A stretch of DNA of 39,194 bases, from the NCBI GenBank assembly GCA_000934665.2, contig JYFJ02003649.1, positions 1-39,194 on the forward strand, written 5' to 3'. The first letter of the stretch is position 1. The number at the start of each line of letters is the position of its first letter. A model generated the notes under the pieces. That model was not told the origin of the DNA. It saw only the letters and a program-made list of their open reading frames with translations, and searched no databases. A program made the position numbers and the translations under genes. Below, piece after piece: positions 2,569-38,880 of the stretch. This DNA comes from Catajapyx aquilonaris. Lineage: Eukaryota.

Positions 2569-2809
2569 AAGAAGCTGGTTGTTGGTCACAACATGATGCT
2601 TGACCTTTGCCACATGATACATCACTTTCTAAGCCCAGTGCCTGAAACCTACAATGAATTCAAGACTCTGGTGACCTCATCATTTCCAAAGCTTCTAGAT
2701 ACGAAGGTGGTTTCCAGTACCCATCCGTTTAGAGAGAAGATTTTCAATTCTGCCCTAGGACCCCTAATAGAGGCCCTACGACATGAGCCCTATTGCCTAA
2801 GTGATATTG
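2569..2809 (+). CDS. PARN: PARN internal exon (nuclease domain, ExoII motif); gene is 5'-partial
   Basis: Acceptor tttgtag| and donor G|gtaag. Translates KKLVVGHNMMLDLCHMIHHFLSPVPETYNEFKTLVTSSFPKLLDTK..., matching the PARN motifs GHNMLLD (catalytic Asp) and FPxLLDTK. Confidence 0.95.
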
Positions 2810-2923
2810 GTAAGAATATTTTTCTTGTTGTGACCTCAAGTGGACCCACTTAAATTGCTAGGCTGCTAGAGAGTTGTTTGAATTACATAAATTTGATTGT
2901 ACACTGTTGAATAATCTTTACAG

Positions 2924-3034
2924 GAGTAAAAAGTGGAGCATGTGGGTACTCCTCTACAAAGGACAGGGCTCATGTGGCCGGATATGATGCATATGTGACT
3001 GGACTCTGCTTTATAACTATGGCTGATCACTTGG
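2924..3034 (+). CDS. PARN: PARN exon (ExoIII motif)
   Basis: Acceptor tttacag| and donor G|gtaagg, phase-compatible with its neighbours. Translates GVKSGACGYSSTKDRAHVAGYDAYVTGLCFITMADHL (cf. human [22 protein letters not shown]). Confidence 0.95.
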
Positions 3035-3338
3035 GTAAGGCATGGATAATTCTCATGATCAATGTCTTGATCACTGTAGAGTGCAACTGTGTTTCAACAC
3101 TTTGATGTGCATGTCTCAGCCTTAAGGGGGAGATGTAAAAGGATCAAATTAGGCTTGGTGAGAAGTCTAGTGTGAGTGGTGGATAATGACTCGTCCTCAC
3201 TTGCTTGCCTCCCATGCCGGCAGAAATGGGCAGGTTCAAAGTAATGCTGGACAGTTTTCAGTTGCACTACACAGAGGCTGTACAATAAGTATCATTCTCG
3301 TCGTGGACGGTTATTGACTTCTGATTGCTGTTTTCCAG

Positions 3339-3408
3339 GGACATTTCAGGATCCTCCAAAAAAAAGAGTGCTGCCAGGATCACCACTCTTGGAACCATTT
3401 TTTAACAA
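3339..3408 (+). CDS. PARN: PARN exon
   Basis: Acceptor ttttccag| and donor AA|gtaggg. Translates GTFQDPPKKRVLPGSPLLEPFFNK; the EPFFNK motif is conserved in PARN. Confidence 0.9.
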
Positions 3409-3470
3409 GTAGGGAAATGCATTTGTTCCTGTCGTACATGTGAAATCTGACACTATTTAAATTGCTTCAG

Positions 3471-3526
3471 GGTGTTTATGATGAGAGTACAGGACTCACC
3501 ATATCTCAACCTGGGTGGACCTGACA
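3471..3526 (+). CDS. PARN: PARN exon
   Basis: Acceptor cttcag| and donor A|gtaagt. Translates VFMMRVQDSPYLNLGGPD (cf. human LFLMRVMDIPYLNLEGPD). Confidence 0.93.
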
Positions 3527-4979
3527 GTAAGTGCATTGGGTGGCATCAGGTTTATTTTGGGGTTAAAGTGAAGATATTACAGTGAAACCTGTTTAGGACA
3601 GAGCTTGAACGTGGTGGAGACCTGTGCTCTACAAAATTGTCGATTGCTGGTCATTTTCGATTTTTTTTTGTTGCATATATGTAATGGAAAATATCAGAGT
3701 GATCCTGCTACAGACAGGTGTCACTATGCATAATGTTGACATTTGTGCTATGCAACCTTTACAAGATAGAAACCAGTGGAAAATTGGTATTGTGAATTAG
3801 GTGCATTTATTATCAAACTATATTCTACTCAGCTGCTTGTGAATCACTGCGATCTGTGCAACCAGAATTTCTGGTCGAGTTGCCTCTTGCTGACATACAA
3901 GTGTGGCTGCTGGTTGCTATACCTGTGAGACAGTTTGAGAGGTGGTTGAATAATCAAAATGTCAGATGTGTGGAAGAATGGCTGGGTAGATGGTGAAAGA
4001 AATCATAATAAAGCCTATATAAGGTGGTGCGTTACCCAATTGCTCAATTTCAAAAGGTCTTAAGGAAGAAGTGGATTTTTCACTCCAGCAACCAGGTTCA
4101 GAGAAGCAGCCTGATGGAAGCCACAAACAGGATTCAATTCACTTATTGTGATGGTTGCCTTTGTTGTCTCATTTATGTGGTACAAATATTTGAAAAGGTC
4201 ATGTCAGGATAAATGCTTGAGATAACAACAAAGAATATATCCACACATTTTCAAGCTAACTGTGCTGGATGAAATCTGGGCTGGTCTTTGTACTTTTGCT
4301 GTGGCGTGATTTTAGTAATTTGCATATTATTTGGTACAAAAAAAGTATCAGTTAATTTTATTCATTGCTATCAGGTACATTATTTTTGCATGATATAACA
4401 AGATGGATTCTAGGCTGTAGAAGAAAGTATTCTTTTTCACTATTTGAAATGGAAGGCTGCAAATAGGTCGAATGATTTCATAACATAAGTTCAAAAGGAA
4501 GCTTATCGGTTTTATGTAAATAACATGAGAATGTCTGTTTCAATGTGAATGAATTTAGTTTTTATTTGAGTAGCATTGACGTATCCAGAAGGATGCCATC
4601 CTACTCTGAAAAGCTGCATCTGCACATTGTACAGTGAGTTCATTTGGTTGAGTGAAAGCATGATATATTGCAGTGTGCAGATGCCGCTTTCTTTGGTAAG
4701 ATGGCAGTACAGTAATTCCTGCACTACAACCTGGTTGCACCATAATATTGTCTATTATGGAATTTTTGAGTGGTTCTGGAGGAGGATTTTTAAGTGCGCT
4801 GCAGGCCTACAATGTTTCTATAATATACAATTATTCAACTTGTTCTGTATGGAATATTTTTGCAGAATAGCATGATTCTGCTGTAAATAGGTTTCACTGC
4901 AGTTTGCTACTCTGTTCCATGACGTCAGTTTTAGTATTGCACCCTTTTAATTTAGTTGTCTTGAGTGTGCTCAGTTGTA

Positions 4980-5219
4980 CAGTGCTGGACATATTAGCCG
5001 TCGCTGAATGTTTTTTTACGGCGGCGGCGGTGGCGTTACCTGGCAACCCTGTCCGGCGGGCCAATTCAAACATCAGCCCATGGAGAGTGCTTCCATTGTT
5101 GTCACTGTTGAGGGCTTTCCATGGGCTGATGTTTGAATTGGCCCGCCGGACAGGGTTGCCAGGTAACGCCGCCGCCACCGGAAAAAAACATTCAGCGACG
5201 GCTAATATGTCCAGCACTG
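4980..5219. mobile_element. Fold-back Tc1/mariner-type MITE, copy 1 (240 bp, shorter centre)
   Basis: TA|CAGTGCTGGACATATTAGCCGTCGCTGAATG...CATTCAGCGACGGCTAATATGTCCAGCACTG|TA. Inverted arms of ~105 bp, TA target duplication and CAGTG termini. Confidence 0.9.
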
Positions 5220-6286
5220 TACAGTACAACTACAGTAAGCCTAGGTGAAATTAATTAATAAGTTCATGTGTTGCCATGGGCAATACAACCTCACAAGACA
5301 CATTAAGGAATATGATTTCGAAATTATTCCCAGTTTGATATGATTATAAAATACTCAAAAATATGGAAATGGATTGAGGTACTAATATCATTGTTGCCTT
5401 AATTTTATTGAAATAAACAATACTGATTGTTTAAGGATTTTGTCCAAGGTACTTGTTTTCCATGATACACACAAATTTCACTGTGCTTCTGACATTCATG
5501 TACTTGCTTGTTGTCAGGATGCACTTTCATATCAGGAGGCCCTGCACTTTTACCTACATTCCTCGGCTTTATCTGCTGAAAGATGGGTGTGTATCCGCTG
5601 AAGGATAAGTGTGATCCACCGGGAAGGAAAGTTAGGCATGGGGTAGGATGGTACAGTACTGTACAACGTGGCCCTATCCTGCCACATTCTGTCTCCCAAT
5701 ATGAAAGTCTTTCCAGTGTTAGTACTTATACAGGGTGTAAATGAATTCCTATCAGATACTCCTAGCAGGGGTTCTTTACCTGAGTTGCCCACACCCCCAG
5801 GGGGTGCGAGGTGGCACCCTTGGGGGTGCAGAGCAAGGTGCACTCCTGGACTTACATTTAGTGTTACTATGAACTAAATGTTTTGGCTCGAAACATTGAC
5901 ACAGTTCATCTCGGTCAATGTTGGACGCAGCACAGTCGTTAATTGTCTGGCACAAAGGAAACTTTTGGCTGCTGATACGGATTTGGAGCTTCATCAACAT
6001 GTAAGAAAAAAGGTTAAACTGTTAAAACAAAAGAAAGGGAGGAAAAATAAATCGGTGACTGATAGGGAATGCACGAAGGACCAACTGTAATTTTAATAAA
6101 AGGCCTGGTTGGTAGAATGACAATTAATGGGAAGTACTCAATTAGGTACTTGTATAGGTATTCACAATACATAATGAGATGTTTTCTCTTAGTTTGGGTT
6201 GATTTAAGTGAGCTTCAGGGATGAATAGCCAGCCACTAAAGAACTGAAGATATTGAAGTTAAGTTTATATTGTTTTTAACTTTCAG

Positions 6287-6373
6287 TTGCACCTGCCAGA
6301 GACCACGTGTTCTACGTCACATTCCCGAAGGAATGGAAGACATCTGATTTGATCCAACTCTTCAGTCCATTTG
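6287..6373 (+). CDS. PARN: PARN exon (N-terminal half of the RRM), 87 nt, phase 1-1
   Basis: Acceptor ctttcag| and donor G|gtgagt. Translates [30 protein letters not shown] (cf. human [26 protein letters not shown]). Confidence 0.95.
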
Positions 6374-6647
6374 GTGAGTCCATATTTTTGCTTTTACTAT
6401 GAAATGAGGAATGCAACTTTATTGTGCATTAATTTGTGTTGATGAGGTGTTGCAGATGTGGGATTGGGCTTGTTCTGATGTATCTCCAGGCACAGATACA
6501 TCAGAACAAGCCCAATCCTGTTTCTCATTTTAATTTCAGAATGAGTTCAATGACCTCGTACTTGTTTAGATATCCACAAATCCCCAGACAACACACCTTT
6601 TTGACCTCCAGTATTTTTTTCCATTTGTAAGCATTATCATCATGGTT

Positions 6648-6973
6648 CAGTGCTGGACATAATAGCCTTCGCTGAATGTTTTTTCCCGGTGGCGGCGGCG
6701 TTACCTCTCAACCCTGTCCGGCGGGCCAATTCAAACATCAGCCCATGGAGACTGCTTCCATTGTTGCCACTTTTTACAAATCGAACGAGTGACGCGGACG
6801 ACCCAGCGACGGGTCTCTTCTGCCTGCGCACTCACTCACTCGATTTGTAAACAGTTGCAACAATGGAAGCGCTCTCCATGGGCTGATGTTTGAATTGGCC
6901 CGCCGGACAGGGTTGCCAGGTAACGCCTCCGCCAGAAAAAAACATTCAGCGACGGCTGTTATGTCCAGCACTG
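6648..6973. mobile_element. Fold-back Tc1/mariner-type MITE, copy 2 (326 bp)
   Basis: Same family as 4980-5219: CAGTGCTGGACATAATAGCC...GGCTGTTATGTCCAGCACTG|TA. Arms extend ~140 bp around a short loop. The left flank reads TT instead of TA. Confidence 0.9.
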
Positions 6974-7408
6974 TACAATCAGGGAGGAAGAAGGACACAG
7001 GTTTATAAATAGGAGCCAAAAACACAGATTCATGCCTAATTGCACCAAACGAAATTACCAATCCAATAGTTCCTAATGGGTCGTTGGAGCCCTTTTAACG
7101 TCTGCTAACGATCTGTTAGGAGCTATAAAATTGTAATTTTGTTGGTATAAACGGGCATCAGTGCAACAAAATGCAGTGTTTTATTTGGAAAGTCCACTTT
7201 AAATGTTTTTTTCCACGAAGTTGCTTACTTTTACGCAGTTAATTATGAATGAGTAGTTTTGAAGTAAGTCTGAAAATTTTGTTGTAGTTTTTAATGATTA
7301 CATTTAGTTAAACATCTAGCATTCATGTTGCTGTCAGTGAATTCATTATTCAAAGAAATGTACGTAGTGCATGTGAAGAACTACACCTTCATGACATTGT
7401 ATTGCCAG

Positions 7409-7664
7409 GCCCTGTGCAGATCCATTGGTCATCTGATACATCCGCTTTTGTTGCCCTGATCCGCAAGGAGAATGCTGGCATGGTGCTCAGAACCATAGCA
7501 GATGATGCCTGTACATACACAGTTATTCCCATGGAGGAGCAGAAGAGACGGGCAGCTGCAAAATTGGGTAGTGCATCCACCCAGCAGCCCAGTAGCAGGA
7601 AGAGGGCTCCAGCTGAAGTAGATGAACAGCCAAGGCCAACAAAGAAAAAGATAGCCATTGGAGA
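7409..7664 (+). CDS. PARN: PARN exon (C-terminal half of the RRM plus a putative bipartite NLS)
   Basis: Acceptor ttgccag| and donor GA|gtaagt. GPVQIHWSSDTSAFVAL matches human GNIQISWIDDTSAFVSL, which includes the cap-binding Trp. RKRAPAEVDEQPRPTKKK is NLS-like. Confidence 0.92.
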
Positions 7665-8284
7665 GTAAGTTTTTAGCAGGAAAAAATCTGAAGATTTATA
7701 GCTTTGAATGCTTTTGAATAGGTCTTGATTTTTAATCCTAGCAATTAGTTAATGTCAATAGCAGTTTTAGGGGGTTGATGGATCACACCACTAAGTATTT
7801 GGAGCAGGTTTTTGCTTGATCTCACCACCAACTACCATATATGGGACATTTTGCCACACCTAACCCTCTTTCTCTTCAAAAAAATTGTTGCCTGTGATTC
7901 TTACCTGTGACAATCGAGTTTTTCAGATGCAAGAGGATGGGCAGCAATTTTTTCCATTCCTAAAGCCAAAACTGTGGTCTTGGTTACATATCTGGTTGTG
8001 GCAGTTGCAATTTAGCATTCTGGTTGCAAGTGCAGTTGTCAAGTTAGGTTAATTCTTGTAAGGATTTGGATTGAAATTGAAGATAGGGATTAGGGTTCAT
8101 TATCATTTTTGCACTTGGGTGCACATTTCTCAGTGCATTGATAACCATGCAGAATTTTAACTTAGAACCAGTTTGTATCTTCAAATCTTCTGTCAAAACA
8201 ACTTGATGCATATGCAACTTTGCATTTAGTAAAACCAGAGACCTGCTCATAGGCTTGTAAGTTTTTTAATCGCATGTGTTGCAG

Positions 8285-8355
8285 GGCCTGTTTCTCTGGA
8301 CGAAGCATAGACCCAATCCCAGAAGAACAGGAGGAGGTTGAGGAGAAGCCAAAGG
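8285..8355 (+). CDS. PARN: PARN penultimate coding exon (acidic C-terminal tail)
   Basis: Acceptor tgttgcag| and donor G|gtgagg. Translates EACFSGRSIDPIPEEQEEVEEKPK. It converts phase 2 to phase 1, exactly as needed to join the flanking exons. Confidence 0.75.
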
Positions 8356-9083
8356 GTGAGGCATAAATTAATCTACCTATAACTAGTTTTTCGCTGTAAA
8401 GGTTCTCCAAAATCTCATGTTTCTGGACAAAACTTGATTTTGCCATCAGCTTTACAAGGTGAATTACACAGACATGCAATAATTGCACTCCTGGCTCAAT
8501 TATGCAATGCATGAAGTCCTACTGTCATAGTTGTGTATTTTGTTGTCCTCATTTTGCATTACAATGCAGGTTAATATAAAAGTACTGACTATTGCTTAAA
8601 AAAATTGAGATGATTTTTTGTTGAAACCAAATGCAAAATCGTTTCCATCTTTTTGAGTGATAAGGCATGTTGATGATAAAATAGGATTTGTTATCATATG
8701 TTAAGCAACTAGTTATCCTGGTGAAGTGGTTACCCAACAGGCTGAAACTACTGTAATTGAAATTTTTTACATGCAGGAGAATAGATATTCCATGCTAAAC
8801 TTGAGTGGTTTTATTCTTTACTGACATGAGGTGTAGGTGGACAAGGTTGTGCATGTCTCTCTTTATGACATGGTAATCTGATTTTATTTTTAAATGTGTC
8901 ATAGGCTATAAAAGTGACATGGCAAAATTATTCATTTGCATTAAAATTATTGAGACAACCCAGTTTGTGTTTGTTGTCGTCTGTCAAGTTTTTGTTACGG
9001 ATGTGTGTTAGTTTTCACTTTGATTTTTAAATACCATCATCCAGAAAGTATGTTAATCATCTTTGACAACACCTTACTTTCAG

Positions 9084-9124
9084 CAGCTGTGAAGCAATTT
9101 GAAGAACCTGACACTTGGGGATAG
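9084..9124 (+). CDS. PARN: PARN last coding exon
   Basis: Acceptor ctttcag| (tandem CAGCAG; alternative start 9087). Translates AAVKQFEEPDTWG*, matching the conserved PARN C-terminus (human LFEVPDTW). Stop TAG at 9122-9124. Confidence 0.88.
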
Positions 9125-9517
9125 CAGATGGACCCAAGAACTGCTGCTTTTACATATTGTTACCACCAGTCCATAGCAATAACTGTAATCCTATTTACAT
9201 TTTATGCTGTGAAAGCGCTGTGGATGAAATGTGTACTAAATGAAAAGCCTTTTTTTGTTGTTTTTTTTGAAGTTATGGTTTTCATTGAAAGGTAACCTTT
9301 TTGCCCCTTGGAGGTGATTCCTTGTCCTTTTTTGCAGGTGATGACAACTTAAGGTTATTATGCATGTTTCTGAGCAGCAAATGCAAATTAAAAATTACTC
9401 TGCTGAGGACATGGAAGTTAAATTTTATTAAGCATGTAATGGTCAGCATACTTTGAAAAAAATTGAAGTAGAAGTGGACCCCTGTTATCCGCGGGTCTGT
9501 TATCTGCTGTTTGAATA

Positions 9518-10226
9518 CAGTGGAACTCTGATTATCTGTCACCAACGGTGCTGGGGCATCCGAAAAGGTCAGATAATCCGAGGAGTAAAAAACATGAATG
9601 AAACTCAACAAAAAAACATGAAATAACATTATTGGGGGAAGGTGCGGTGGTCGAGATGGTAATGTCTGGGCTTGCTGTGCGAAAGGTCCCGGGTTATAAT
9701 TCCCGCCTGGGAGTTGCCTTTCGCCTGCGTCAGTGGGTCTCTGGCCCCTGCCTAAGGAGGCATCTTGGCAACCAGCCTCCTGGGGGACTGCACATGACCC
9801 GTTTCCGACATTGCACTTGCACCTGTGTCCATCCCCCCCATCCTTACTCTACATCCCTAATTGTCCTTGCGTGGACTCTGAAGAAAAATTGGAAAATCAG
9901 TCCCCCTAAAAGGGCTTTGTTCCCACCAATGGGGTAAGAAAGAAAAAAAAGAAATACATACATACATAGAATATTGTGGTTTTATAAGACATAGTGAAGT
10001 ATTTATTTTTTACACGCACTCTAACACTGTATTTACAATTATTGTAAATACACTACAGTAGAGTGTGTGTAAAAGATAAATACTTGACTATTTCTTAGAA
10101 AACCATAATATTGTACGTATTTTATGTTTTTGGGTTGCGTTTTATTCAAGTTTTTTTACTCTTCGGATTATCCAACCTTTTCTGCCCCAGTCCCGTTGGT
10201 GACGGATAATAATCAGGGTTCCACTG
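9518..10226. mobile_element. Inner fold-back pogo/Tc1-like MITE, interrupted by a SINE
   Basis: TA|CAGTGGAACTCTGATTATC...ATCAGGGTTCCACTG|TA. Once the SINE is removed the arms pair all the way to the centre TGTATTTACAAT-T-ATTGTAAATACA at 10040. Confidence 0.8.
9634..9950 (+). mobile_element. tRNA-derived SINE
   Basis: A-box-like TGGTCGAGATGG, degenerate B box GGGTTATAATTCCC and an A-rich tail AAGAAAGAAAAAAAA. It is flanked by GAAATA(A)CAT repeats and is absent from the opposite arm of the host palindrome. Confidence 0.7.
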
Positions 10227-10401
10227 TATTCAAACAGCATGTAACAGACCCACGGATGTAATGTTCTACACATGTTTCACTATGCATATTTCACTAAAAA
10301 ACACAGCTTTATTACTGGAGAGAGACAGTTGGATAAACCGTGGAGTCGGATATTGGGATTCTACTGCACTATCTGTATATACTGTATATGAAATTAATTT
10401 T

Positions 10402-10407
10402 AATAAA
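10402..10407 (+). terminator. Candidate PARN polyadenylation signal
   Basis: First canonical AATAAA I found after the stop codon, followed by a U/GU-rich tract (TTCTTGTATTTTTGTTG). Variant signals near 9235-9245 and at 9387 could end the mRNA earlier. Confidence 0.45.
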
Positions 10408-10589
10408 ATATTAATATGAAAAATTCTTGTATTTTTGTTGCAGTACAGTACTGTAATACAACTACCACTATCCTATTTTATTGTCACTTGTTCTTGTTAT
10501 AATGTCTTATTCAAACTTTGCATGCACGTTTAAAATTATGTTGTATAGGGCTCAGTTTCTCTGCGGGAAAGCATGAAACTTGAAAATGA

Positions 10590-10638
10590 CAGGCCCACAT
10601 AGATATTAAAAGGTAGCTTTAATATCTATGCAGGCCCA
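10590..10638. mobile_element. 33-bp TIR-only remnant with an 8-bp target duplication (P-element- or hAT-like)
   Basis: CAGGCCCA-[CATAGATATTAAA aggtagc TTTAATATCTATG]-CAGGCCCA: perfect 13-bp inverted repeats directly flanked by a perfect 8-bp direct repeat. Confidence 0.75.
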
Positions 10639-12443
10639 ATGGATCATACATATTTTATTCCTTGCCCTTGATTCCTCTGTCTGGTAGAGTGGTAGGACAC
10701 ATCGGAAGAGAACTAGTACCACTCTCTACCATCCTGTAGCACCCGTAGAGCCTGCCAATGCAAGAATTGGTGGTGGTATTGACCTTGCCTTGCACCAAAG
10801 GGCTTAGAAAGTTGAATATGGCAGTTGTGGTACTGGTACTTCCGTAGGGAATGGGTCTGGGATAGTGGGCTGGGCCCAAATGTTATCATGCCATGTGTTG
10901 TAAAAAGGGCCCAAGTCTGCCTGTGGGGAAGGTTGTGGCCTCTCGAATCCCGAAGCCCAGTTGTCATTTGGCAGCCAGGGCATTACGGGTTTGAGAAAAC
11001 CCGTAAGTCTGGATTTGCCAGACCTTTAGGGTGGGAGGGTTGGCCGCTCGACTTGGGATTTAGACATGAGGGAGAAAGGTTTGCATGTGGACACTCACCT
11101 CAAATTGTTCCTACTGGGTGGGACATGCGTGGCCCACCGATTTGCTGCACCTTTCGAGTATGCTAAGCTGCTACTTTTTTGTGTATGCTTACGGGCTAAT
11201 TGGATTGATTTCTTTTAGAGCAGCTACTTCCTAGTCATTGCACTAGTCAAGTAGCCAATTACTTTCACACTTCTGCATAGTGGACTCAACGCTGACGTGG
11301 TAATTGAGAGCTCATTGCCAGCTCTTCATTGAAATATTCCCAGGCTGATAACTTGCTCTAACCGAGCTGACCAAAATGCACCTGCACGAAGAGTTCCTCC
11401 TAGTGGTCACATCCTTCACCGTTGAAGTTGATGGACAGTGAGATGTTTTAATTGATGCGAATCAATCTGTCAAAATACGCGGGTGTTCCATCCACTCAGG
11501 TTGGTGGCGGCCATGCATTATACTTTTTTTATTCCAATACTCTCCGCAATTTTTACCAGAGTGTCTACTTCAACTGGCATGCCCATAAGAAAGCGTAGTT
11601 GGTTGCTGCATACGGTCATAAAAATACGCAACATTACCAAACGCATCCTGAAACCCATGGAAACGATTAATAATCCTCCTCGTTAAAACCGAGAGAGAAA
11701 ACTCAGGCATAAAAACGGGCAGCCTGTCACGTATTAGTCGAAGCGAAGAAGCAGCAACATTAGAGTGTTTCTTGAGTGTTGGGAATGAGAAATGCAGGCG
11801 ATGATAACAAAGGAAGACAGGTTTGCTTTGATAAATTCTTCCCAGTCATGCGATTGGTTCTGCTGGACACGTGAGGAAGCTCATTCATTCCCTAGTGTTT
11901 TTTTTCTCCCTCTTCTCTCTCCTGCTAAGCTCACTTGTTATGGGTTAAGTGTTTATCTCAAGTCGTGGGATTGCTTGAGTAGGTTTTAATGTCTCGTGAA
12001 GAAATGGGTATGAAAAAATGGCCTCACTTGTGCATGTTCAGCCAACCATGCATGCTTGCTGCCTTTTTTTCCTCCTCTGTAGTCTGCACCTCTCATCAAT
12101 TGGGAGGGTTCATTTCCCTATATTTTCACCACAAATTGGCGAATCAAATGGTCAGAAAAGCAGCGGATGGATGACACAGAATGATTTCATCGCCTGATAG
12201 AATTTTTCGTTATGACCACCCAGTTTTGCGGGTATCCCACATCCTCACAGTACTGTAACCATTCGAGTAATTGTATTTTTTTTTGCATACATTCGCTAGA
12301 GCACAATATATCTTACCTCATGAGTCATGACATTCTTCATCATTCATTCTTTATATGAAACTGTCATCATTCTCCAGTAGTCTAGTGTGACTGATAGGAA
12401 ACGAGGTGTGATTAATCCATTGACTCATAATCTTCATCAACAT

Positions 12444-12525
12444 TTTATTCTCAGTACAGTTTATTAATACATGTCGCCTATTTATAAGAGGCTATTACCC
12501 ATGGATGAACCTATTCATATTTATT
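12444..12525 (-). terminator. Cluster of three AATAAA hexamers 3' of mir-2788 (candidate pri-miRNA 3' end)
   Basis: TTTATT on the + strand at 12444, 12460 and 12520, ~290-370 nt downstream of the mir-2788 3p arm. The context is AT-rich, so chance is possible. Confidence 0.3.
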
Positions 12526-12800
12526 AACAATGCTAGTCATTAAAATTTTGAATTTAGGCATAAGCCTACAATAGAGCAGACTTTGGTAGAGAAACGCTGT
12601 GACAGCCATTCCTCACTCTGCGCACACTGGAATCAAATCTGAAAAGGAAATGCAAGTTGTACAAATATAATGTGCACAAAAAAGGTAATGGCACTCTTAA
12701 GAAAGTTGCTTGATACAAAAGGTCATTCATTGCATATGCATGACCTACTCGTACGTTCCCACGTCGCCTGCTGCGTCCAGGGTGTCCATCGAATGACTTA

Positions 12801-12894
12801 TGTTGCGCACTTTTGGGATTTCCAAGGGCATTGCATTTTGTGGTAGTTTAATCAATGACAAATGCCGCTAAGAAACCCCAAGTTTGCCTCAACG
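12801..12894 (-). ncRNA. mir-2788: microRNA precursor mir-2788 (MIR-193 family paralogue)
   Basis: The minus-strand 3p arm CAATGCCCTTGGAAATCCCAAA (12833-12812) matches arthropod miR-2788-3p as I recall it. The 5p arm TGGGGTTTCTTAGCGGCATTTG (12880-12859) pairs with it, and a basal stem is present. Confidence 0.93.
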
Positions 12895-14101
12895 TCTCAT
12901 TAGAATCCTGATTTGCACATCCGAGGTTCTCACTGGGAATGACCTGCAGACGGATGCCAAACTTCCTCTGACATTTCCTGAGAGTGTGAGTACGCTACAT
13001 GCCTCTGGCCATCATCCGTCACTTAGGGTAATGTATCTGATAGAATCGCGCTTGACCGGACTGGAGAAAGACACGCGAATTGTATTCCATCCGTGTGTAT
13101 ATTGAACAGACAGTGAGATTTTCTTTGAGAAGAACATTATCACTGATCTGGTAGATGGGTAAGGTCACTCACATGCCTGCCTCTCTATGGCCATATCCGC
13201 TCCCTGGGGGGGTGTTCAAATGAGAATCTGCTTGAAGGGCCTACTACGCTCAATTATACACTATGCCTACCTGCGTAGAAGGCATTTTACAGCTTGGCGC
13301 AGGTGCAGTTCGGGAGGAGTAGTCACCTTAATTGCTGATATATAAAGTGGGAGGCAATTACGACAACTTCTAACACCCTTTTTTGGACTAATTATTGTTC
13401 CGGGCTCACCAACTAATTGGATTTTCTTAGGCCCAGGAAGCTGTATTTTTCGATGTCATTATGCATATCTCCGCCACTGGCCTGCATCTCACTCATAATC
13501 CATTATCGTCAGTGTCCGTTCAACAAGAGTAGGTCTTCTCCCAGAAAAGTGCGTACGCGGGGTTCATATACATATCCACCAAATTGGATACCATATGACA
13601 ACCCACCCCGACATAATGAATGTCCCTTTTAGTCTGGCAGTAAGAAGCCTTATATGCTCCTCAGTCCATGTGGTCCCGCAGTGCATTATGTTGCAAGTCC
13701 GAATAGGCTATTGACTCATAAAATGCAGTGGATGAGGCACGAGCATTGTCTTTAAGAGAACGTAACTTGCTGGCATTGCTCATATAAGTCCGGCGCAGGA
13801 CATTGACTGGCTCATTAAGAGTGTGTTGAGTGACGTCGGTGCTTTTTGAAGCATTGTGTGCGCGTGTGCAGCACGTGCTATCCCCCTCCTTGTTTATTTG
13901 CCCTTATTTCCGGTGCTTTACGGTTTCCTCTTACTTCAATTACCCTATCTGCGGGATGCCTACTTCATTTCCGAGTTAGTAATGAGACTTCGTCTTCTCT
14001 CCACCGAATGAGAGAGATATATGAAACACCCCACGTATCAACAAACATTCCGGCCGTAACCATGAGGTTAAAAGGCCGTGTCTTCCAGACGTAGGTAGAA
14101 G

Positions 14102-14199
14102 ATCAGCCAACGACCCTTGGGACTTAGCAGGCCAGTAGAGCATTATTTCCCGCCAGGTGGAACCACTGAACCACTAAGGCCCAAGTCTCGCTTGGTGAT
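14102..14199 (-). ncRNA. mir-193: microRNA precursor mir-193
   Basis: The minus-strand 3p arm TACTGGCCTGCTAAGTCCCAAG (14137-14116) matches insect miR-193-3p (seed ACUGGCC). The 5p arm TTGGGCCTTAGTGGTTCAGTGG (14184-14163) pairs with it. Basal stem ATCA-CCAAGCGA / TCG-TTGG-CTGAT. Confidence 0.95.
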
Positions 14200-17100
14200 T
14201 GGTCTCTCTGGATGGCTGGCTCGATGGACGGCGGTGCTGACATCTTCTGGCCTGTGGATGATTATTAGGGAGGAGGAGCTGCAAACCATTGTTAGCAGCA
14301 GCAGGTGGAACCATTGAATCACAAAAGGGGCATAATCTAGAATTGGTTTTGCCCTATAGGGGAGTTTGGGCGACACCTAACATCGGCGTGACACTGTCTA
14401 CCTCGCTTCCTTCAGACCAACTTCTGATAATATCGGGCTGAGAACTTATCTCACTTGAACCGTGTTGGGTTGGAGGATTGGTTTCTTTGACTGGCTGACA
14501 TCTTCCGGCATCGAGATTGGGAGGAGGATTCAGGTGGGATGGGACAAAGAGAAAAGAGCAAGGCAGTTAGCACCTGGTTCATTGCTGTGCCGAGGCTTTT
14601 ATGTCGCAAGTAACACCAGTATTGCGATTAAGATGCACTTTTATGTCTCGCGGAAACCGGTCGGCCCAGTCGACAATTTTTATTCTGCTTGTTTTTTTTT
14701 CTAAAAAAACATTTTGAGTGGATTTTTAAAAGCCGATTTATTGCGCCGATGGCCGCGACATGCGACCGTCGCCAGGAATGAAGTCACTATGTGGTTTTTC
14801 AAAGTCAGTCTTTAACCTTGTGGAACTGTCGAAATCATGACTGCATTCTTAAGCTACTTCAACATCCCTGCTTTACTTACTCCACCATTAAGTTATAAAT
14901 CATCGCCATTTTATGCCCCATTATCGCATGTCTACCAGAATATTATAGCTCTACATTTTAAAATTTACTAGCCAGAAATTTGTTTTGAATCTAACAAGAT
15001 ATCGGTACCTAACACAGTGTTTTCTCACTCATACCGCCTGTACCGTACGGTTAATTGAATGAATATTGCGGTAGGTTACATGGTATTTAGCCGGAGATTC
15101 CACAGCTGTTGCTTGTATCAACCTGTGTAAAAATCTTGAGTGGGTAATAATGGCTTGGAATGCAAATTGCAGCGCTCTTCTCCCTGAGGACTTAGGAGGC
15201 ACTTGAACCGGGCGAAAAGTGGCGGCCTCTCCAAAACGCAGATTAATTAGTCACGAGAGGTAATTAATGGCAGCCAAGTCTGGTTGTAAAAGGACGGAAT
15301 ACAAGTGCGCGCAGTGGGAAGGTTCCGGTTGGATGTGCGCACACCAAAACCATCAAAGATAAGGGAGGGATGGTACCAAAAAAAAAAAAAAAAGTGGTGG
15401 AAGAATAAGAAGAGAAACTGCGCTTTTCCTATGTTATTCTGCGCATCTGGATAGCAGTGAAAAAGCATTTTTACAAATCCATGAAGATTTTCGTGAGACC
15501 GGAAAGAAGTGGTTTTATGGCTTTATACTACCCCCTGCTTGTGCCTCTTCCATGGAGGTCACGGTTTCTCCTTTTCAGCAACCTAAAAAGCCTCGACCAC
15601 CACCAGCGACATTTTGTTGCGATATTCCACTTTACGACTTAAATGCAGGTTTACTGGATTGACACACCTGATTACTGTGTCGCCATTACATCTAAAGTAT
15701 GACATGCGGATGCGTGAGTGTCGCTGTCTTAACTGGCAATCTGTCATGTCAGGGAAGAGAAACTGCAGCATTCAAACATAATTATGATGGGGGAAAGATC
15801 AAAACTAGGCTAACTAATGAGTTAGACATTTTAAAGAATCGTGTGTTGCTGTAATTTATGACATATAAAACGTGGACATTGTATTGTTTTGCTATTAGCA
15901 TAGTGCATGAGTTTCGAATGGCCTAAATCATGTACCAAATCTACATGCACAGTATCTTTTTCAATCTGGTAGGCTATTACAATGCTTATCAGACTCTCAC
16001 TCATATGGTAATCTCACATTTAAAAAATTACCTGTGTAATATTTAACACCGTCATTCCTTGAACTGACACCTAATATGACAATAAGTCATGGATACTTTC
16101 CAGTATTAAGCCTGCACAATTTTCCCAAGAAACTTGATGCGTGATTGCAGTTCATAAATTTTACAGAGGCGCGAATAAGGTGCAGTACCGGTACTATGTG
16201 CATGTACCACTAGATCACAATCTGTTACACCTGTAAGGATGGAATTCACGAATATCTGTCATCCTGAGAAACTCGTTTCACTTCTCAGCTGGCATTCTCA
16301 GTTTTCCTGTGGTCCATGCAATAGTACTTGTATAAGTTATACTAAATTCTGGTATTACTGATACCACCTCCTACGTAGTCGGCATTAAAGTATAAGTGAT
16401 GGGTACACATACACACTGCGGGGGCAGTTGATGCACCAGACGCTATGTTACATGTGGCCATTATGTATAGCTTGCATAAATTTGACACTCCCATTAATTT
16501 TGGCCAGATGAATGGCTAAAGCTCTCCGGAAAAACCTTGACATTATGTGGCTACACACACTGCACTCTGCGTTATATGCATCCAACACCAGTGACTATTG
16601 AAAGCACTTTTGAGTGACATTATGTGTTATTTTTCTGGCAGCACACACCCATCTCTGCTTGCATGCTTGCATCTTGCATCTAACTAGAGCGGTGGCAGAA
16701 AATTGCAGCCGGAAGTTGGTGAGAGATACCACCAGTCACGATAATAACAGGATTAAGATTTGACGCCACCTCTTCTGCATATGCTAATGTTACTGCTAGT
16801 GTTTATTAATAAGGGTGTGTTTAGCTCTGCTCTGAAATGCTATGCAATTATTTGCCATAATAATGTGATGATAACAGTCGCGACAGGTATAACCATGCAA
16901 GAGTTTTTGATTGGCCGTGAAGCGGTCTTATCTTTGACGATCCTGCATATGTAATTGTGATGCAATGAAAATTTCTATCCAAATGAGGATTCCTACCGTC
17001 AAAGACAATTAACCCGTCATTTTGCTCTCCTTGAGATCTTGAAACTTTCATATAAGATGATACCACTTCATGGCTATATTAATTTTCACATGAAATGCCT

Positions 17101-20100
17101 CAACTCTCAAGGAGACTGACTGGCGTTGATTGGGCACGTTATGGCGATAAACCCACATATACTCTGCCATGCCAGACAGCTACATATTAATAACCAACCT
17201 ATAAATTGTACGGATGGTTTATTTTATGGACGCAAACTAATTAGACACCAAGTCAGTAAATGTCAAAATGCGTTCAACCCGCACTATATATATGCACGTG
17301 TGTTTTTACACCACACTTGGCATTGATAAGCATCCCGATCTTGCCGTCATGCCATCGTCTGTCAGGTACGACAAGGGTCTGCTTGCTGCATTAGAAATGA
17401 ACAGAATACAACGCATGTTAAGGGATCGGAGTAGACATAAGTCACCTTGGGCGTGGCAGGTCTAATCCCGAAAAAGGAACGGCATGATCTCAAAATAAGA
17501 CCCGGGCAAGTGTAAATAATAATTATAATAATGAATGAGAAGTGCTGAGGATGAGACATCGTTACACGGTTTCCGTCTGTCAGACGACGGAAATTACAAC
17601 CGTAAACAATGGTTGCGTGTGTCTGGAAGGGTTGGGAAGTCTGGGCGCTTCTTTCGAGTCGGTTCAAGACTCGAATGAATTCATTTTATTTTTTAAATTT
17701 TTTATCCTCCAACTTGGTACTCTTTTTTTTTCGTAGGGAGGAGGGTGAGGGATGGTAACCGGTTGGTTGGTTGGCGGGGCGGTCATTGTCTGCCCAGGAC
17801 GAGTGAGTGTCCTTCTCAGAGGTGGTAGGTAGGTAGGTCGAACCTTTTTCAGGTTCATCCAATTTGGACGTACAGGGCCAAAGGCTAACTGAATCTTTAA
17901 AGGGGCACGGCCTGTTTAATGGGACAGAGACCGTAACGGGACGGTTATTCTTCGGAGGTTGAGAGTGTGTGGTCGATGGTCCTCCCCAGTATAATTTGTA
18001 AAGACTCTTAGTTCTGGCCTGCCTGAAAGAATGTATGAATGAACGAACAAAGTAAAAGACACAGAAATAAATAATAAAATAAATGAGGGTGTAGGCGCTA
18101 ATCCTGACAATCCGGATATGCAAAAAAAATGCCTGTAATATTAGTCCATAAAATATGACTGATTGTTTGCTAATGATATATTTTCTCGACTTGATAAACA
18201 ATCTTTTTTCAATAGGACTACCTCCTTTATTTACACAAATTAGCCGTATAGTCCTATATAATTTCACGCTGTATCTCATCATTACCATTAATAAGATGGC
18301 ATCTGTCCAAACATAATTTCTTAGTAAGAAGTTGGATTTGTTGCTGTCCACTTGATAGCAGAAGCACAAACCGGCCGTTAATTAAGAAAAAAGTCGCAGA
18401 TTATGAGCGGTGTGGTGGGTGGGAAGGGTGTTTCCCCATTTACATATCGACCTGAATCTAAAGAGCTCTAATTGGCCGAGAAGACCGGGTATCTCAATCA
18501 ACAATGAGGAGGATCCCCAATGCAAATGAGCACAGATCATTGTATATCAAAAGCCTTCCTTTTTTTCATTCTTGCAGCCTGTGGTGCATGGATGGCGCGA
18601 ATAAATAATCTTGACACACAAGCTTTAGGACCTATTAACTCCACCCAAGCGTGTATTAGTGACGGTTTAATCGGACGCCCCCGGTTCATGCTGATTTTAA
18701 TGCAACACCCTAATGTCTCTATGTATTTAATGCAGGCGTTGATAGGAACCCATTGCTTTAGTAGGGTGATATGGAATGTGCCCATATACACCTGGCCTCC
18801 AGGTAAGATCTGCGATGATGGCCACATCCGCGTACTGTACAGCACAGCTCGACTTCGAGTAGACTGCAGGTCAATGTCCTAACAAGAATTCCGCTTTTAT
18901 CAGCCTTTGGAAGGCCAGGAACAGACCAAGAAGTTTAGGGGGTGGGGATGAGGGGGAACAGAAAAAAAATGCGAACATCACGTTCTAAGCACCCCTTCCT
19001 CTACCCTCTGTCTGTCCAATGGCGATAGAAAAAAATTTGCTATAGTCGTGACTTCATTTTAATTGCTAAGCGAAATGCGATTAATCATTGGCAAGATGGA
19101 TATTGACATATGAGGAATTAGTTGGCGACCTGGGGAGAGATATTCAGGGGTAAGTGTCACACCGCCTAAATAGGTTGTCAGTCGTATGAATGAACCGCTC
19201 GAATCACGTGAGCTTCATTCTCACCTTGCCATACCTGAGCAGAACAACACTGCTAGTTATGTATGACAGTGAAAATGATCTTGATTAATGGATTCTTTGA
19301 ACTGTGCCGGGATCCAACCGTTTTGGTTATTTAATTATTTTTGCACATTTTATGGCCGGATCTTGGGACTAAGAACTTTATGATGTGTAACTGTCCTTTT
19401 GCGCTTTAGTGGGTTCAAATATTTGTAAAAACAGGGTTTGAGCCGTGGTGATACTAAAGAATCGTACATGTGAGGCAAGTGAACTCGTGATAGGGCGATT
19501 AGTTTTATTGAAGTATATACTCTTGTTCCGCGCCTTCTGGTTATAGCTGGGTCGATCTAGTCCGTGTAATTAGAGCCCCTAGGGCCTTAAAACTGCCTTC
19601 CAATAGGTTTTTATCGACCAAGTGCAATTCAACAGTGAATCAAATTTGTGGACAATTTCCGTTTAGATTAAGATGTGACAAAATGTAGTTACCAGTTGGC
19701 TACCGAACCATCTCCAGATGGCAGAATGGTAAAAAAAAACATTCCCTCGAAGCCAAAAGAATAATCGCAAGCAACCGGTTTAAGCGTCTTGTTATTCCCT
19801 TCGCAATATGGTCAGCCCAGGACAAGAGGTCAGGCACGTCGTTTCTTTTTAAGCGGGCGTTGTATACAAAACATCCTTCCAGTTTGTTTATTAATTCCTC
19901 CTCTTTCGTACCGACATGCTTCAGCATCATTTACTCGGTTGTTCAGAGAAGAGAACTCTGCGTTTAAGTGAATTTTTTCAGCTCAGCGTTGTCCATTAAA
20001 ATCACTTTTTTTGCCTACATATGGAGAAGAAAAGAAGAAAAACAACATGCCAGCAACTCTGGTGTGTGATCACTGGAGGTTAGCACGTGATGTCTCGTAA

Positions 20101-22653: not shown

Positions 22654-22779
22654 GGGCCGGTTTCACCGAGCTCAGTATATGATAAAACCAGGGTTCTTTC
22701 TCAAAATTCCTATCTATTTGTATGGATTTTCCTAAAGAAACCTGGTTTTAACATATACCAAGCTCGGTGAAACCGGCCC
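22654..22779. mobile_element. Tourist-like (PIF/Harbinger) MITE, 126 bp
   Basis: TAA|GGGCCGGTTTCACCGAGCT...AGCTCGGTGAAACCGGCCC|TAA: 19-bp perfect TIR extending imperfectly to ~45 bp, with a 3-bp TAA target duplication. Confidence 0.92.
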
Positions 22780-23886: not shown

Positions 23887-23911
23887 TTGTGGAATCACNT
23901 TGTGGAATCAC
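23887..23911. other. Assembly gap/contig join
   Basis: A single n at 23899 with TTGTGGAATCAC repeated on both sides, next to a poly-C run. Confidence 0.8.
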
Positions 23912-26900: not shown

Positions 26901-27135
26901 TGGCAGTGTATATCGCACCTTCTGCTATCCCCCACCCTCCATCCCACCCACCTCTGTATACTGTCCTCTCGGCAGTTCTTATGCGTGATGGAATGTTTCC
27001 ATTCCCGCATTCTTTCGCACTCTGAAGGAGGAACATTATTACCCAGCAGCTCACGTGCGTCCCAACCATACCTTTTTGGATTGTTCTCATGTGTTATGGA
27101 CAGCATGCATGCATAACGGGCCTTCCGAAGGCTAT

Positions 27136-27158
27136 CCACCACCACCACCACCACCACC
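27136..27158. repeat. (CCA)n microsatellite
   Basis: Seven perfect CCA units plus CC. Confidence 0.9.
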
Positions 27159-38600: not shown

Positions 38601-38603
38601 CAA

Positions 38604-38845: not shown

Positions 38846-38880
38846 CAAAGACAGTGATTTTATTGGGTGGGCTACATATA

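What the first reader, a model, noticed from the sequence alone, without database searches (positions are those of the whole stretch)
2569..14199. parn - mir-2788 - mir-193 linkage: the core of the butterfly cortex/ivory colour locus
Seen: two complete, co-oriented miRNA hairpins 1.3 kb apart on the minus strand, convergent with PARN and invisible to the ORF track. Established: in Lepidoptera mir-193 and mir-2788 lie between cortex and parn, derive from the lncRNA ivory, and mir-193 is the effector of the melanic wing-pattern hotspot. Inference: this is the orthologous locus. The V-type SINE and the lack of visible cortex exons hint at a non-lepidopteran host, which would make the parn-miRNA microsynteny much older than the wing-pattern role and point to an ancestral cuticle or pigmentation module.
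Basis: partly seen in the sequence, partly recalled or inferred. Interest (0 to 1): 0.9.

Follow-up and report, generated by a model that had tools for sequence, protein, structure and literature searches.

The report
Conserved mir-193/mir-2788 cluster beside PARN

Summary
On the minus strand lie a mir-193 hairpin (14109-14192) and, 1.2 kb downstream, a mir-2788 hairpin (12798-12900). Both carry mature arms identical to published arthropod sequences, and both converge on the 3' exons of PARN on the plus strand (2569-9249). PARN is the only recognisable protein-coding gene in the 39 kb. The 25 kb upstream of mir-193 holds no cortex/WD40 exon.

The host could not be named, because every route to an organism name was closed or empty. 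It is probably an arthropod. The evidence against a lepidopteran is weak.

An unrelated metagenome contig (L001) shows the same mir-193, mir-2788, reverse-PARN order. Papers also place the mammalian miR-193b-365a tandem, which is intronic in the lncRNA MIR193BHG, between MKL2 and PARN. miR-365 shares its seed and 15 of 22 bases with the window's miR-2788-3p.

The linkage therefore says nothing about pigment or cuticle. This is a new member of a known, conserved miRNA cluster. I found no paper that connects the butterfly ivory locus with MIR193BHG/PARN.

The parts
14109..14192 (-). mir-193 precursor hairpin (upstream member of the tandem)
   Evidence: RF01895 40.6 bits, E 8.6e-7. Fold -43 kcal/mol, z -3.36. 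6 of 33 predicted pairs keep pairing through changes on both sides across window/L001/L003.
14116..14137 (-). miR-193-3p arm (seed ACUGGCC)
   Evidence: Unique exact 22-mer, 0 of 100 shuffles. Identical to the commonest Heliconius miR-193 read. The same string is printed in crab, crayfish and termite papers.
12798..12900 (-). mir-2788 precursor hairpin (downstream member)
   Evidence: RF03212 63.4 bits against gathering score 62, E 6.9e-13. Fold -36.4 kcal/mol, z -3.62. 79% identical over 96 nt to metagenome loci L004/L007.
12812..12833 (-). miR-2788-3p arm (seed AAUGCCC, the seed of vertebrate miR-365)
   Evidence: Unique exact 22-mer. The same string is printed in the mud-crab paper, and it matches all 21 letters of dvi-miR-2788. 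15 of 22 positions, including 2-8, equal miR-365a-3p as printed in PMC8347250 (my count).
12859..12880 (-). miR-2788-5p arm
   Evidence: Read. 20 of 22 identical to the commonest Heliconius miR-2788 read (my count).
12843..13097 (-). Piece of the primary transcript: a 255-nt contig of the cDNA-like run X5, 0 differences, covering the 5p arm and loop of mir-2788 and about 200 nt upstream
   Evidence: table 8, record 13, in sequence that is single-copy in the DNA run X1 (depth 27.8). A contig shows neither strand nor ends; the strand given here is inferred.
2569..2808 (+). PARN exon (CAF1 nuclease domain, C-terminal part)
   Evidence: PF04857 78.1 bits. Matches human PARN residues 282-355. Laid piece of the spliced contig.
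2923..3033 (+). PARN exon (end of the CAF1 domain)
   Evidence: Spliced contig piece. CAF1 21.4 bits, below the cutoff, for ORF 2911-3105. tblastn.
3326..3555 (+). One or two small PARN linker exons (about 3326-3409 and 3469-3555), boundaries not fixed
   Evidence: tblastn of PARN homologues, 20 and 21 hits. From the X5 depth in table 2 I calculate that about 127 nt of the mRNA contig lie in bin 3335-4001.
6271..6402 (+). PARN exon (start of the PARN RNA-binding/RRM domain)
   Evidence: PF08675 55.5 bits. 57 tblastn hits.
7408..7664 (+). PARN exon (rest of the RNA-binding domain and the basic tail)
   Evidence: PF08675 33.5 bits. Spliced contig piece with a GT just after 7664.
9086..9249 (+). 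Last PARN mRNA piece seen (3' region); ATTAAA at 9387 is a possible poly(A) signal
   Evidence: Contig piece that reaches the contig's end. Motif scan.
9250..12797 (.). Tail-to-tail spacer between PARN and mir-2788, with SINE-like repeats at 9478-10260 and AATAAA on the minus strand at 12525, 12465 and 12449
   Evidence: No Pfam family in its ORFs. High repeat depth in 9338-10671. Motif scan. A pri-miRNA end here is inferred, not shown.
14193..39194 (.). 25 kb upstream of mir-193 without a recognisable coding exon (candidate non-coding host-gene territory); no cortex/WD40
   Evidence: 0 of 212 ORFs of 50 aa or more reach a Pfam cutoff. 2 of 212 give weak sub-cutoff hits (BP28CT 17.2 bits, DUF2719 16.3 bits).

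Best explanation
The region holds the conserved tandem miRNA cluster mir-193 then mir-2788, in a genome that is most likely an arthropod's, lying tail-to-tail with the poly(A)-specific ribonuclease gene PARN. The most likely mechanism is as follows. Both hairpins are transcribed from the minus strand as part of one non-coding primary transcript. That transcript starts somewhere upstream of 14192, possibly far upstream as with ivory or MIR193BHG, and ends in the roughly 3 kb spacer before PARN's 3' end. Drosha/Pasha and Dicer then release miR-193-3p (seed ACUGGCC) and miR-2788-5p/3p (3p seed AAUGCCC), which repress target mRNAs. mir-2788 is the arthropod counterpart of vertebrate mir-365. It has the same seed, the same position just downstream of mir-193, and the same neighbour, PARN. 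The order host transcript, mir-193, mir-365/2788, reverse PARN is therefore inherited from an early bilaterian ancestor, and the lepidopteran colour locus is one lineage's use of it. Shown here: the two hairpins, their mature arms, their order and strand, PARN and its splicing, and one RNA contig over the mir-2788 flank. Inferred: co-transcription, the transcript's ends, processing, which arm is dominant, and any phenotype.
For: Hairpins and arms. Published identical or near-identical mature sequences: Heliconius read sets, Diabrotica table, Parhyale table, and crab, crayfish and termite papers. Structure is kept across loci, with 6 of 33 mir-193 pairs compensatory. PARN: and the spliced cDNA-like contig. 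An RNA contig at 12843-13097 overlaps the unprocessed mir-2788 hairpin. Independent locus L001 (metagenome contig, 35% GC) has mir-193 at 3409-3498 (+), mir-2788 arms at 3866-3888 and 4129-4148 (+), and a whole PARN gene on the opposite strand at about 7656-5265. Its PARN exon is only 49% identical to the window's, and outside the hairpins and one exon there is no DNA similarity. L003 has mir-193 and mir-2788 1.27 kb apart in the same order. [quoted passage not shown] In goat and mouse the neighbours are MKL2, PARN and BFAR (PMC9779864 passages). miR-365a-3p as printed in PMC8347250 shares 15 of 22 positions, including 2-8, with the window's miR-2788-3p. [quoted passage not shown]
Against: mir-193 scores below Rfam's gathering threshold (40.6 against 55), as do the L001 and L003 copies (41.9 and 46.8). 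No Rfam family other than mir-2788 matched 12798-12900 at E up to 1, so the link to mir-365 rests on seed, arm identity, position and neighbour, not on a profile match. PARN was found next to mir-2788 in only 1 of the 6 true metagenome loci. The other five hold only about 0.6 to 3.1 kb downstream, less than the window's 3.5 kb gap, so they neither support nor contradict. L005 has 3.6 kb upstream of mir-2788 with no mir-193 at E up to 0.001. Drosophila mir-193 lies in a different context, so the linkage is not universal. Co-transcription is supported by a single 255-nt contig at depth 3 from a run whose kind is not on record. The orientation of the human genes is recalled, not read from a paper. 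DNA contigs of run X1 break at repeats between 9746 and 10090, so no contig I saw independently bridges PARN to the miRNAs in this window.
Confidence: 0.85

Rival explanations
1. The host is itself a lepidopteran, so this is simply the already described ivory:mir-193/mir-2788-parn locus with nothing added.
For: The miR-193-3p arm is identical, and the miR-2788-5p arm 20 of 22 identical, to Heliconius reads. The gene order and convergence match what is described for Heliconius. No tool named the host.
Against: All of this is weak. The window is 42.7% GC. CpG observed/expected is 0.43-0.59 over the PARN body against 0.75-0.87 in the flanks, a gene-body methylation pattern that, from my own knowledge, is not typical of Lepidoptera. 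The gap from the last seen PARN mRNA piece to mir-2788 is 3.5 kb, against 276 bp from the PARN stop codon in Heliconius. No PARN with shared words was found in the protein collection, although many lepidopteran genomes are annotated (the tool calls this weak evidence). The same mature arms occur in crustaceans and a termite, so they do not point to Lepidoptera.
Confidence: 0.1
2. The parn-miRNA linkage marks an ancestral arthropod cuticle or pigmentation module.
For: mir-193 promotes melanisation in three butterflies and in Drosophila (abstract and section 6 of the Tian et al. preprint).
Against: In Drosophila the pigment role persists even though mir-193 lies elsewhere, so function does not depend on this context. 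The same PARN adjacency exists in mammals, where the locus is studied for sterol, fat and muscle biology. parn knock-outs in Bicyclus gave at most faint effects. There are no miR-193 or miR-2788 seed sites in the PARN 3' region 7400-9300.
Confidence: 0.05
3. The two hairpins are separate transcription units with their own nearby promoters, not products of one long host transcript.
For: No transcript spanning both was seen. In goat cells, perturbing miR-193b did not change miR-365. In Bicyclus only moderate evidence tied both miRNAs to ivory.
Against: They share strand and order, 1.2 kb apart, in the window and 0.4-1.3 kb apart in L001 and L003. Counts rise together in Parhyale. The human pair lies in one intron of one host gene. 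The RNA contig lies between the hairpins and runs into mir-2788.
Confidence: 0.2
4. The juxtaposition in this window is an assembly artefact across the repeats at 9.7-10.1 kb.
For: De Bruijn contigs of the DNA run break at 9746, 9801, 10083 and 10090.
Against: The window has only one N, at 23899. The same arrangement is seen in L001 on one uninterrupted contig, and in Lepidoptera and mammals according to papers.
Confidence: 0.03

Closest known systems
Lepidopteran ivory:mir-193 / mir-2788 locus next to parn (Heliconius, Bicyclus, Anticarsia)
   Same: It has the same two miRNA families, both just beyond the 3' end of parn, and a long non-coding region upstream. The mature miR-193-3p is identical, and miR-2788-5p is 20 of 22 identical, to Heliconius reads.
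   Different: The hairpins are 1.3 kb apart here, against 2.4 kb in Heliconius and 5.2 kb in Bicyclus. The gap to parn is about 3.5 kb, against 276 bp from the stop codon in Heliconius. No cortex exon lies within 25 kb. The ivory promoter could not be looked for because I held no reference sequence. No phenotype is known, and the host is probably not a lepidopteran.
Mammalian MIR193BHG locus (miR-193b-365a tandem) between MKL2/MRTFB and PARN
   Same: A mir-193 gene is followed by a second hairpin whose 3p arm has the seed AAUGCCC. Both are hosted by non-coding RNA, and PARN is the flanking protein-coding gene. From memory only: in human the order is 193b, 365a, then PARN on the opposite strand, which is the window's arrangement.
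   Different: Distances are far larger in mammals (recalled as about 0.1 Mb). miR-365 and miR-2788 differ at 7 of 22 positions, and no Rfam model links them. Vertebrates have a second copy of the tandem (recalled).
Metagenome contig L001 (unnamed organism)
   Same: The order is mir-193, mir-2788, then a convergent complete PARN gene.
   Different: The locus is compact, with 1.1 kb between the 3p arm and the PARN end, and 35% GC. The two arms of its mir-2788 are about 240 nt apart, although they still pair. miR-193-3p has A instead of G at position 10.
Drosophila melanogaster mir-193
   Same: It belongs to the same miRNA family, and its pigment effect is shown by sponge and over-expression lines.
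   Different: It lies in a different genomic region, lacks ivory, and sits between two co-oriented protein genes. There is no PARN neighbour. From memory, Drosophila has neither PARN nor mir-2788.

Membership tests
mir-193 (Rfam RF01895) | Precursor matches the family covariance model at or above the gathering score | tested here: inconclusive
   40.6 bits against 55, E 8.6e-7. The clear mir-193 copies in L001 and L003 also score below the threshold (41.9, 46.8), so the model under-scores this lineage.
mir-193 (Rfam RF01895) | 3p arm with seed ACUGGCC and near-identity to published miR-193-3p | tested here: met
   The 22-mer at 14116-14137 equals the commonest Heliconius read and the strings in three crustacean and termite papers. 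It is unique in the window.
mir-193 (Rfam RF01895) | Stable hairpin with the arm in the stem and a conserved basal stem | tested here: met
   -43 kcal/mol, z -3.36. 6 of 33 pairs are compensatory over 3 sequences.
mir-193 (Rfam RF01895) | Mature and star reads with fixed 5' ends | not testable with these tools
   No small-RNA run was offered.
mir-2788 (Rfam RF03212) | Precursor reaches the gathering score | tested here: met
   63.4 bits against 62, full-length match.
mir-2788 (Rfam RF03212) | Both arms match published miR-2788 | tested here: met
   The 3p arm is identical to the string in the mud-crab paper and to all 21 letters of dvi-miR-2788. The 5p arm is 20 of 22 identical to Heliconius reads.
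PARN (poly(A)-specific ribonuclease) | CAF1-type nuclease domain | tested here: met
   PF04857 at 78.1 bits, covering profile positions 206-281. Only the C-terminal part of the domain lies in the window. By my count of the alignments, 35 of 74 residues are identical to human PARN and 37 of 74 to mouse.
PARN (poly(A)-specific ribonuclease) | PARN-specific C-terminal RNA-binding (RRM) domain | tested here: met
   PF08675 at 55.5 and 33.5 bits on two exons.
PARN (poly(A)-specific ribonuclease) | N-terminal catalytic half and R3H domain | not testable with these tools
   No PARN exon lies upstream of 2569, so the 5' part of the gene is outside the window.
Lepidopteran cortex/ivory colour locus | cortex (fizzy/Cdc20-family WD40 gene) on the far side of the miRNAs | tested here: not met
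   0 of 212 ORFs in 14.2-39.2 kb reach any Pfam cutoff. This applies only to 25 kb, whereas ivory spans 200-370 kb in Lepidoptera.
Lepidopteran cortex/ivory colour locus | Conserved ivory promoter and first exon upstream | not testable with these tools
   No lepidopteran reference sequence was available to me.
Lepidopteran cortex/ivory colour locus | Host is a lepidopteran | tested here: inconclusive
   Organism names are coded. No genome is held. Only weak compositional hints point away from Lepidoptera.
Bilaterian mir-193 / mir-365-type tandem flanked by PARN (mammalian MIR193BHG arrangement) | mir-193 followed on the same strand by a hairpin with the 3p seed AAUGCCC | tested here: met
   The miR-365a-3p sequence was read in PMC8347250.
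Bilaterian mir-193 / mir-365-type tandem flanked by PARN (mammalian MIR193BHG arrangement) | PARN is the adjacent protein-coding gene | tested here: met
   Window. Mammals.
Bilaterian mir-193 / mir-365-type tandem flanked by PARN (mammalian MIR193BHG arrangement) | Hairpins embedded in a long non-coding host transcript | tested here: inconclusive
   There is one 255-nt RNA contig at 12843-13097 and no coding potential for 25 kb upstream. No transcript model could be built.

The most novel reading that the evidence does not exclude
The butterfly lncRNA ivory and the mammalian lncRNA MIR193BHG descend from one ancestral bilaterian non-coding host gene. That gene carried mir-193 and a mir-365/2788-type hairpin and ended tail-to-tail against PARN. 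The arrangement has been kept for over half a billion years because of a functional constraint, such as a shared regulatory landscape or convergent-transcription coupling with PARN, and not by chance. On this reading the window, from an unannotated non-lepidopteran arthropod, is an intermediate that still shows the ancestral layout. The classic 'cortex' colour hotspot would then be a lineage-specific use of a locus that in humans carries GWAS signals for puberty timing.
Probability: 0.3. Interest if true: 0.6.

Novelty: new member of a known kind. Interest (0 to 1): 0.35.

Why it matters
For this genome the result is a useful annotation. It has two conserved miRNA genes that no ORF-based track can see, a PARN gene confirmed as spliced, and a likely non-coding host region.

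The wider point came from following the neighbours. The parn/mir-193 linkage made famous by butterfly wing-pattern genetics is not a lepidopteran or arthropod peculiarity. According to papers on mammals, the miR-193b-365a tandem in MIR193BHG also lies beside PARN.

The Tian et al. preprint states that how the genomic context of mir-193 evolved across animals remains to be examined. I found no paper that holds both 'mir-2788' and 'mir-365', and none that holds 'ivory', 'mir-193' and 'MIR193BHG' together.

If the connection is indeed unstated, it gives evo-devo groups a concrete comparison: ivory against MIR193BHG, both long non-coding hosts with the hairpins in an intron. It also removes the temptation to read pigment biology into the linkage.

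Tried and rejected
Host naming. All of the following failed:
- The search for homologous proteins with two PARN exons found nothing.
- The Atlas did not hold the window's peptide. For the best library hit, P0001, it gave only 'commonest Arthropoda' for the nearest cluster.
- No genome is held for the window.
- Earlier findings of the scan held nothing relevant.
- A scan of genome contigs for the window's high-copy repeat core found nothing, and scans for the miR-193-3p arm found nothing in genome contigs or viral contigs.

Sequencing runs. No RNA holder was listed. Parts of 10.7-22 kb without X5 cover other than 12843-13097 are not used as evidence.

Six-frame Pfam scan of whole stretches.

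Cross-regulation of PARN by the miRNAs. No 6- or 7-mer seed site lies in 7400-9300.

Exact PARN exon model. I do not trust it, because the laid piece ends are ambiguous by a few bases.

Other Rfam hits. MIR1428, mir-4529, mir-549, MIR4208, mir-999 and mir-3613 are all far below their gathering scores. The first three lie in the high-copy foldback repeats at 5022-5180 and 6690-6934, mir-999 in the high-depth repeat around 2300-2400, and MIR4208 on the palindrome at 22650-22783. I rejected them all as miRNA genes.

Metagenome loci L002 and L006. These carry the 20-mer but no 5p arm or hairpin, so I treated them as chance matches.

'Mir-193-P2' nomenclature. 0 occurrences in the library, so my recollection that MirGeneDB files both mir-365 and mir-2788 under it is unconfirmed.

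The final Science version of Tian et al. This is not held, so I used the preprint. Its supplements are closed and may bear on conservation claims such as Fig. S1.

Full report
**What is there**

An Rfam scan of the whole window gives one match above a gathering score. This is mir-2788 at 12798-12900 on the minus strand, at 63.4 bits against 62, E 6.9e-13, over the full model. A more permissive scan adds mir-193 at 14109-14192 on the minus strand. It scores 40.6 bits, below the gathering score of 55, with E 8.6e-7 in 6 kb.

The mir-193 score alone would not be enough. In the same window, repeat-derived palindromes score 42-52 bits against unrelated plant and vertebrate miRNA models.

What settles the identification is the mature arms. 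TACTGGCCTGCTAAGTCCCAAG occurs once, at 14116-14137 (-). CAATGCCCTTGGAAATCCCAAA occurs once, at 12812-12833 (-). Neither occurred in 0 of 100 shuffles, even allowing three mismatches.

- The first string is identical to the commonest miR-193 read of Heliconius (supplement passages). It is also printed in papers on a crab, a crayfish and a termite (search listing).
- The second string is printed in the crab paper and matches all 21 letters of Diabrotica dvi-miR-2788.
- The 5p arm of mir-2788 (12859-12880) is 20 of 22 identical to the commonest Heliconius miR-2788 read.

Both stretches fold into long hairpins that are better than shuffles, with z -3.36 and -3.62. Across the window and two metagenome copies, 6 of 33 predicted mir-193 pairs are kept through changes on both sides. 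For mir-2788 the figure is 1 of 28 over five sequences, because most of that stem never varies.

The hairpins are co-oriented, with mir-193 upstream and their 5' ends 1,292 nt apart.

**PARN**

Plus-strand ORFs match the CAF1 nuclease domain (78.1 bits) and the PARN-specific RNA-binding domain (55.5 and 33.5 bits). They also match solved human and mouse PARN at E about 1e-18. By my count of those alignments, 35 of 74 residues are identical to human PARN and 37 of 74 to mouse.

tblastn with library homologues finds exon-like pieces at 2569-3036, 3326-3409, 3469-3555, 6271-6390 and 7387-7581, and none upstream of 2569. The window therefore holds only the 3' part of the gene.

Run X5 has no recorded kind, but it contains a 2,145-nt contig that joins 2569-2808, 2923-3033, 7408-7664 and 9086-9249 with the introns removed. 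X5 therefore behaves as cDNA, and PARN is expressed and spliced.

PARN mRNA reaches at least 9249, so PARN and mir-2788 are tail-to-tail, at most 3.5 kb apart.

No other ORF of 50 aa or more in the window reaches a Pfam cutoff. The counts are 0 of 108 in 1-14.2 kb and 0 of 212 in 14.2-39.2 kb, with two weak sub-cutoff hits. There is no cortex-like WD40 exon in the 25 kb upstream of mir-193.

**Transcription of the miRNA region**

The same run X5 has a 255-nt contig with no differences at 12843-13097, in sequence that is single-copy in the DNA run. It covers the 5p arm and loop of mir-2788 and about 200 nt upstream of them. It is thus a piece of unprocessed RNA from between the two hairpins.

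It has low depth (3), and a contig shows neither strand nor ends. I take it as a hint, not proof, of a primary transcript.

AATAAA motifs on the minus strand at 12525, 12465 and 12449 could mark the transcript's end (inference).

**Related loci**

An exact-pattern scan of metagenome contigs for 20 bases of miR-2788-3p returned eight loci.

- Five have an Rfam mir-2788 hairpin at E up to 0.001: L003, L004, L005, L007 and L008.
- L001 has the two arms about 240 nt apart, and they still pair in the minimum-energy fold.
- L002 and L006 have no hairpin and are chance matches.
- mir-193 lies upstream on the same strand in L003 (1.27 kb) and in L001 (about 0.4 kb to the 5p-like arm).
- L005 has 3.6 kb of upstream sequence with no mir-193. 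The other loci are too short to tell.

PARN was found in L001 only, as a complete gene on the opposite strand that ends about 1.1 kb from the miR-2788 arm. The other five true loci hold only about 0.6-3.1 kb downstream, so they are uninformative.

L001 is not a close relative of the window. Its PARN exon is 49% identical, and the only DNA similarity lies in the hairpins and one exon. The arrangement mir-193, mir-2788, reverse PARN therefore recurs in at least one other, distant genome.

**The host**

I could not name it.

- Organism names of the runs are coded.
- No genome is held.
- The cluster look-up was off.
- Two protein-word searches found nothing.
- An exhaustive HMMER search gave at best 56% identity (P0001). 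The Atlas cluster nearest to P0001 is 'commonest Arthropoda'.

mir-2788 is described as conserved in Arthropoda (Tian et al. preprint, passage), and both arms match arthropod sequences. I therefore rate an arthropod host at about 0.85-0.9.

The evidence against Lepidoptera is only weak:

- The window is 42.7% GC.
- CpG depletion is confined to the PARN body, at 0.43-0.59 against 0.75-0.87 elsewhere.
- The spacer to PARN is larger than in Heliconius.

The absence of cortex within 25 kb is not evidence, because ivory spans 200-370 kb in Lepidoptera.

**How old the linkage is**

The seed of the window's miR-2788-3p (AAUGCCC) is the seed of vertebrate miR-365. Against miR-365a-3p as printed in a table of PMC8347250, 15 of 22 positions agree, including positions 2-8 (my count).

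In mammals, miR-365a lies in tandem with miR-193b. Both are intronic in the lncRNA gene MIR193BHG, whose flanking genes are MKL2/MRTFB and PARN (PMC7505984, passages). In goat and mouse the neighbours of miR-193b are MKL2, PARN and BFAR (PMC9779864, passages).

In mammals as in the window, therefore, a mir-193 gene is followed by a hairpin with the AAUGCCC seed, the pair is hosted in non-coding RNA, and PARN is next door. [quoted passage not shown]

That PARN should be the neighbour twice by chance is very unlikely, so the linkage most probably dates to an early bilaterian. Drosophila, where mir-193 lies elsewhere, would then be a secondary loss of the arrangement.

Two points rest on memory alone. 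One is that in human the order is 193b, 365a, then PARN on the opposite strand. The other is that MirGeneDB treats mir-365 and mir-2788 as the same paralogue of the MIR-193 family. The library holds no occurrence of 'Mir-193-P2'. The Platynereis genome paper only names Mir-193-P1 among ancestral paralogues.

The orthology call is right, and the linkage is indeed older than the wing-pattern role. For that very reason it cannot point to a cuticle or pigmentation module.

- The pigment role of mir-193 holds in Drosophila without this context.
- The mammalian locus is studied for quite different biology.
- I found no miR-193 or miR-2788 seed sites in the PARN 3' region.

**Novelty**

The two hairpins, their clustering and their position beside parn are known. 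This copy is a new member in an unannotated genome.

The deep PARN synteny may not have been stated. The preprint leaves the evolution of mir-193's genomic context as future work. It contains no mention of mir-365, human, vertebrate or mammal. My searches gave these results:

- 0 papers hold 'mir-2788' with 'mir-365'.
- 0 papers hold 'ivory', 'mir-193' and 'MIR193BHG' together.
- Among the 9 listed of 11 papers holding 'mir-193', 'PARN' and 'synten', only the Heliconius paper is relevant, and it speaks of synteny within Lepidoptera.

The final Science version and the preprint's supplements were not available to me and could contain such a statement.

**Verdict**

The feature is real and correctly recognised, but over-interpreted. 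Interest is moderate to low for the window itself. The lead connecting butterfly ivory with mammalian MIR193BHG/PARN is worth checking.

Noticed in passing
L001:3866-4148: In this metagenome contig the mir-2788 5p-like and 3p arms are separated by about 240 nt of structured sequence, yet they still pair in the minimum-energy fold (-87.6 kcal/mol, z -2.68). This is either an unusually long-looped precursor or a hairpin disrupted by an insertion.
   Followed up: partly
window 5022-5180 and 6690-6934 (PARN introns): Two copies of a foldback (inverted-repeat) element, 91-96% alike, show summed depth of up to about 100,000 in the DNA run against about 28 in unique sequence. They give spurious sub-threshold hits to plant and vertebrate miRNA models (MIR1428 51.7 bits, mir-4529 46 bits, mir-549 42.5 bits).
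   Followed up: partly
window 2302-2385 (+): A sub-threshold mir-999 match (38.3 bits against 58) lies in a very high-depth repeat just upstream of the first PARN exon in the window. It is most likely a repeat palindrome, not a miRNA gene.
   Followed up: no
window 9478-9590, 9640-9850 and 10150-10260: A SINE-like element with a tRNA-like head (B-box-like GGTTC.A..CC; the loose-end consensus also shows it) is flanked by two inverted partial copies of another repeat. ARAGORN finds no tRNA, and I could not type it.
   Followed up: partly
window 1-10000 against 15000-39194: CpG observed/expected is 0.43-0.59 over the PARN gene body and 0.75-0.87 in the non-coding flank. This pattern is expected from gene-body DNA methylation.
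   Followed up: no
window 22650-22783: A 63-nt inverted repeat, 84% complementary with an 8-nt loop, gives a weak MIR4208 hit. Its meaning is unknown.
   Followed up: no
window 23899: There is a single N in otherwise continuous sequence.
   Followed up: no
L003 (whole locus): [quoted passage not shown] No Pfam domain was found in the 30 of its 62 ORFs that I scanned.
   Followed up: no
L001:9503-10779 and 13963-14148: Beyond PARN in L001 lie an MFS-type transporter and a uracil phosphoribosyltransferase fragment. These could extend synteny comparisons once the window's own left flank is available.
   Followed up: no
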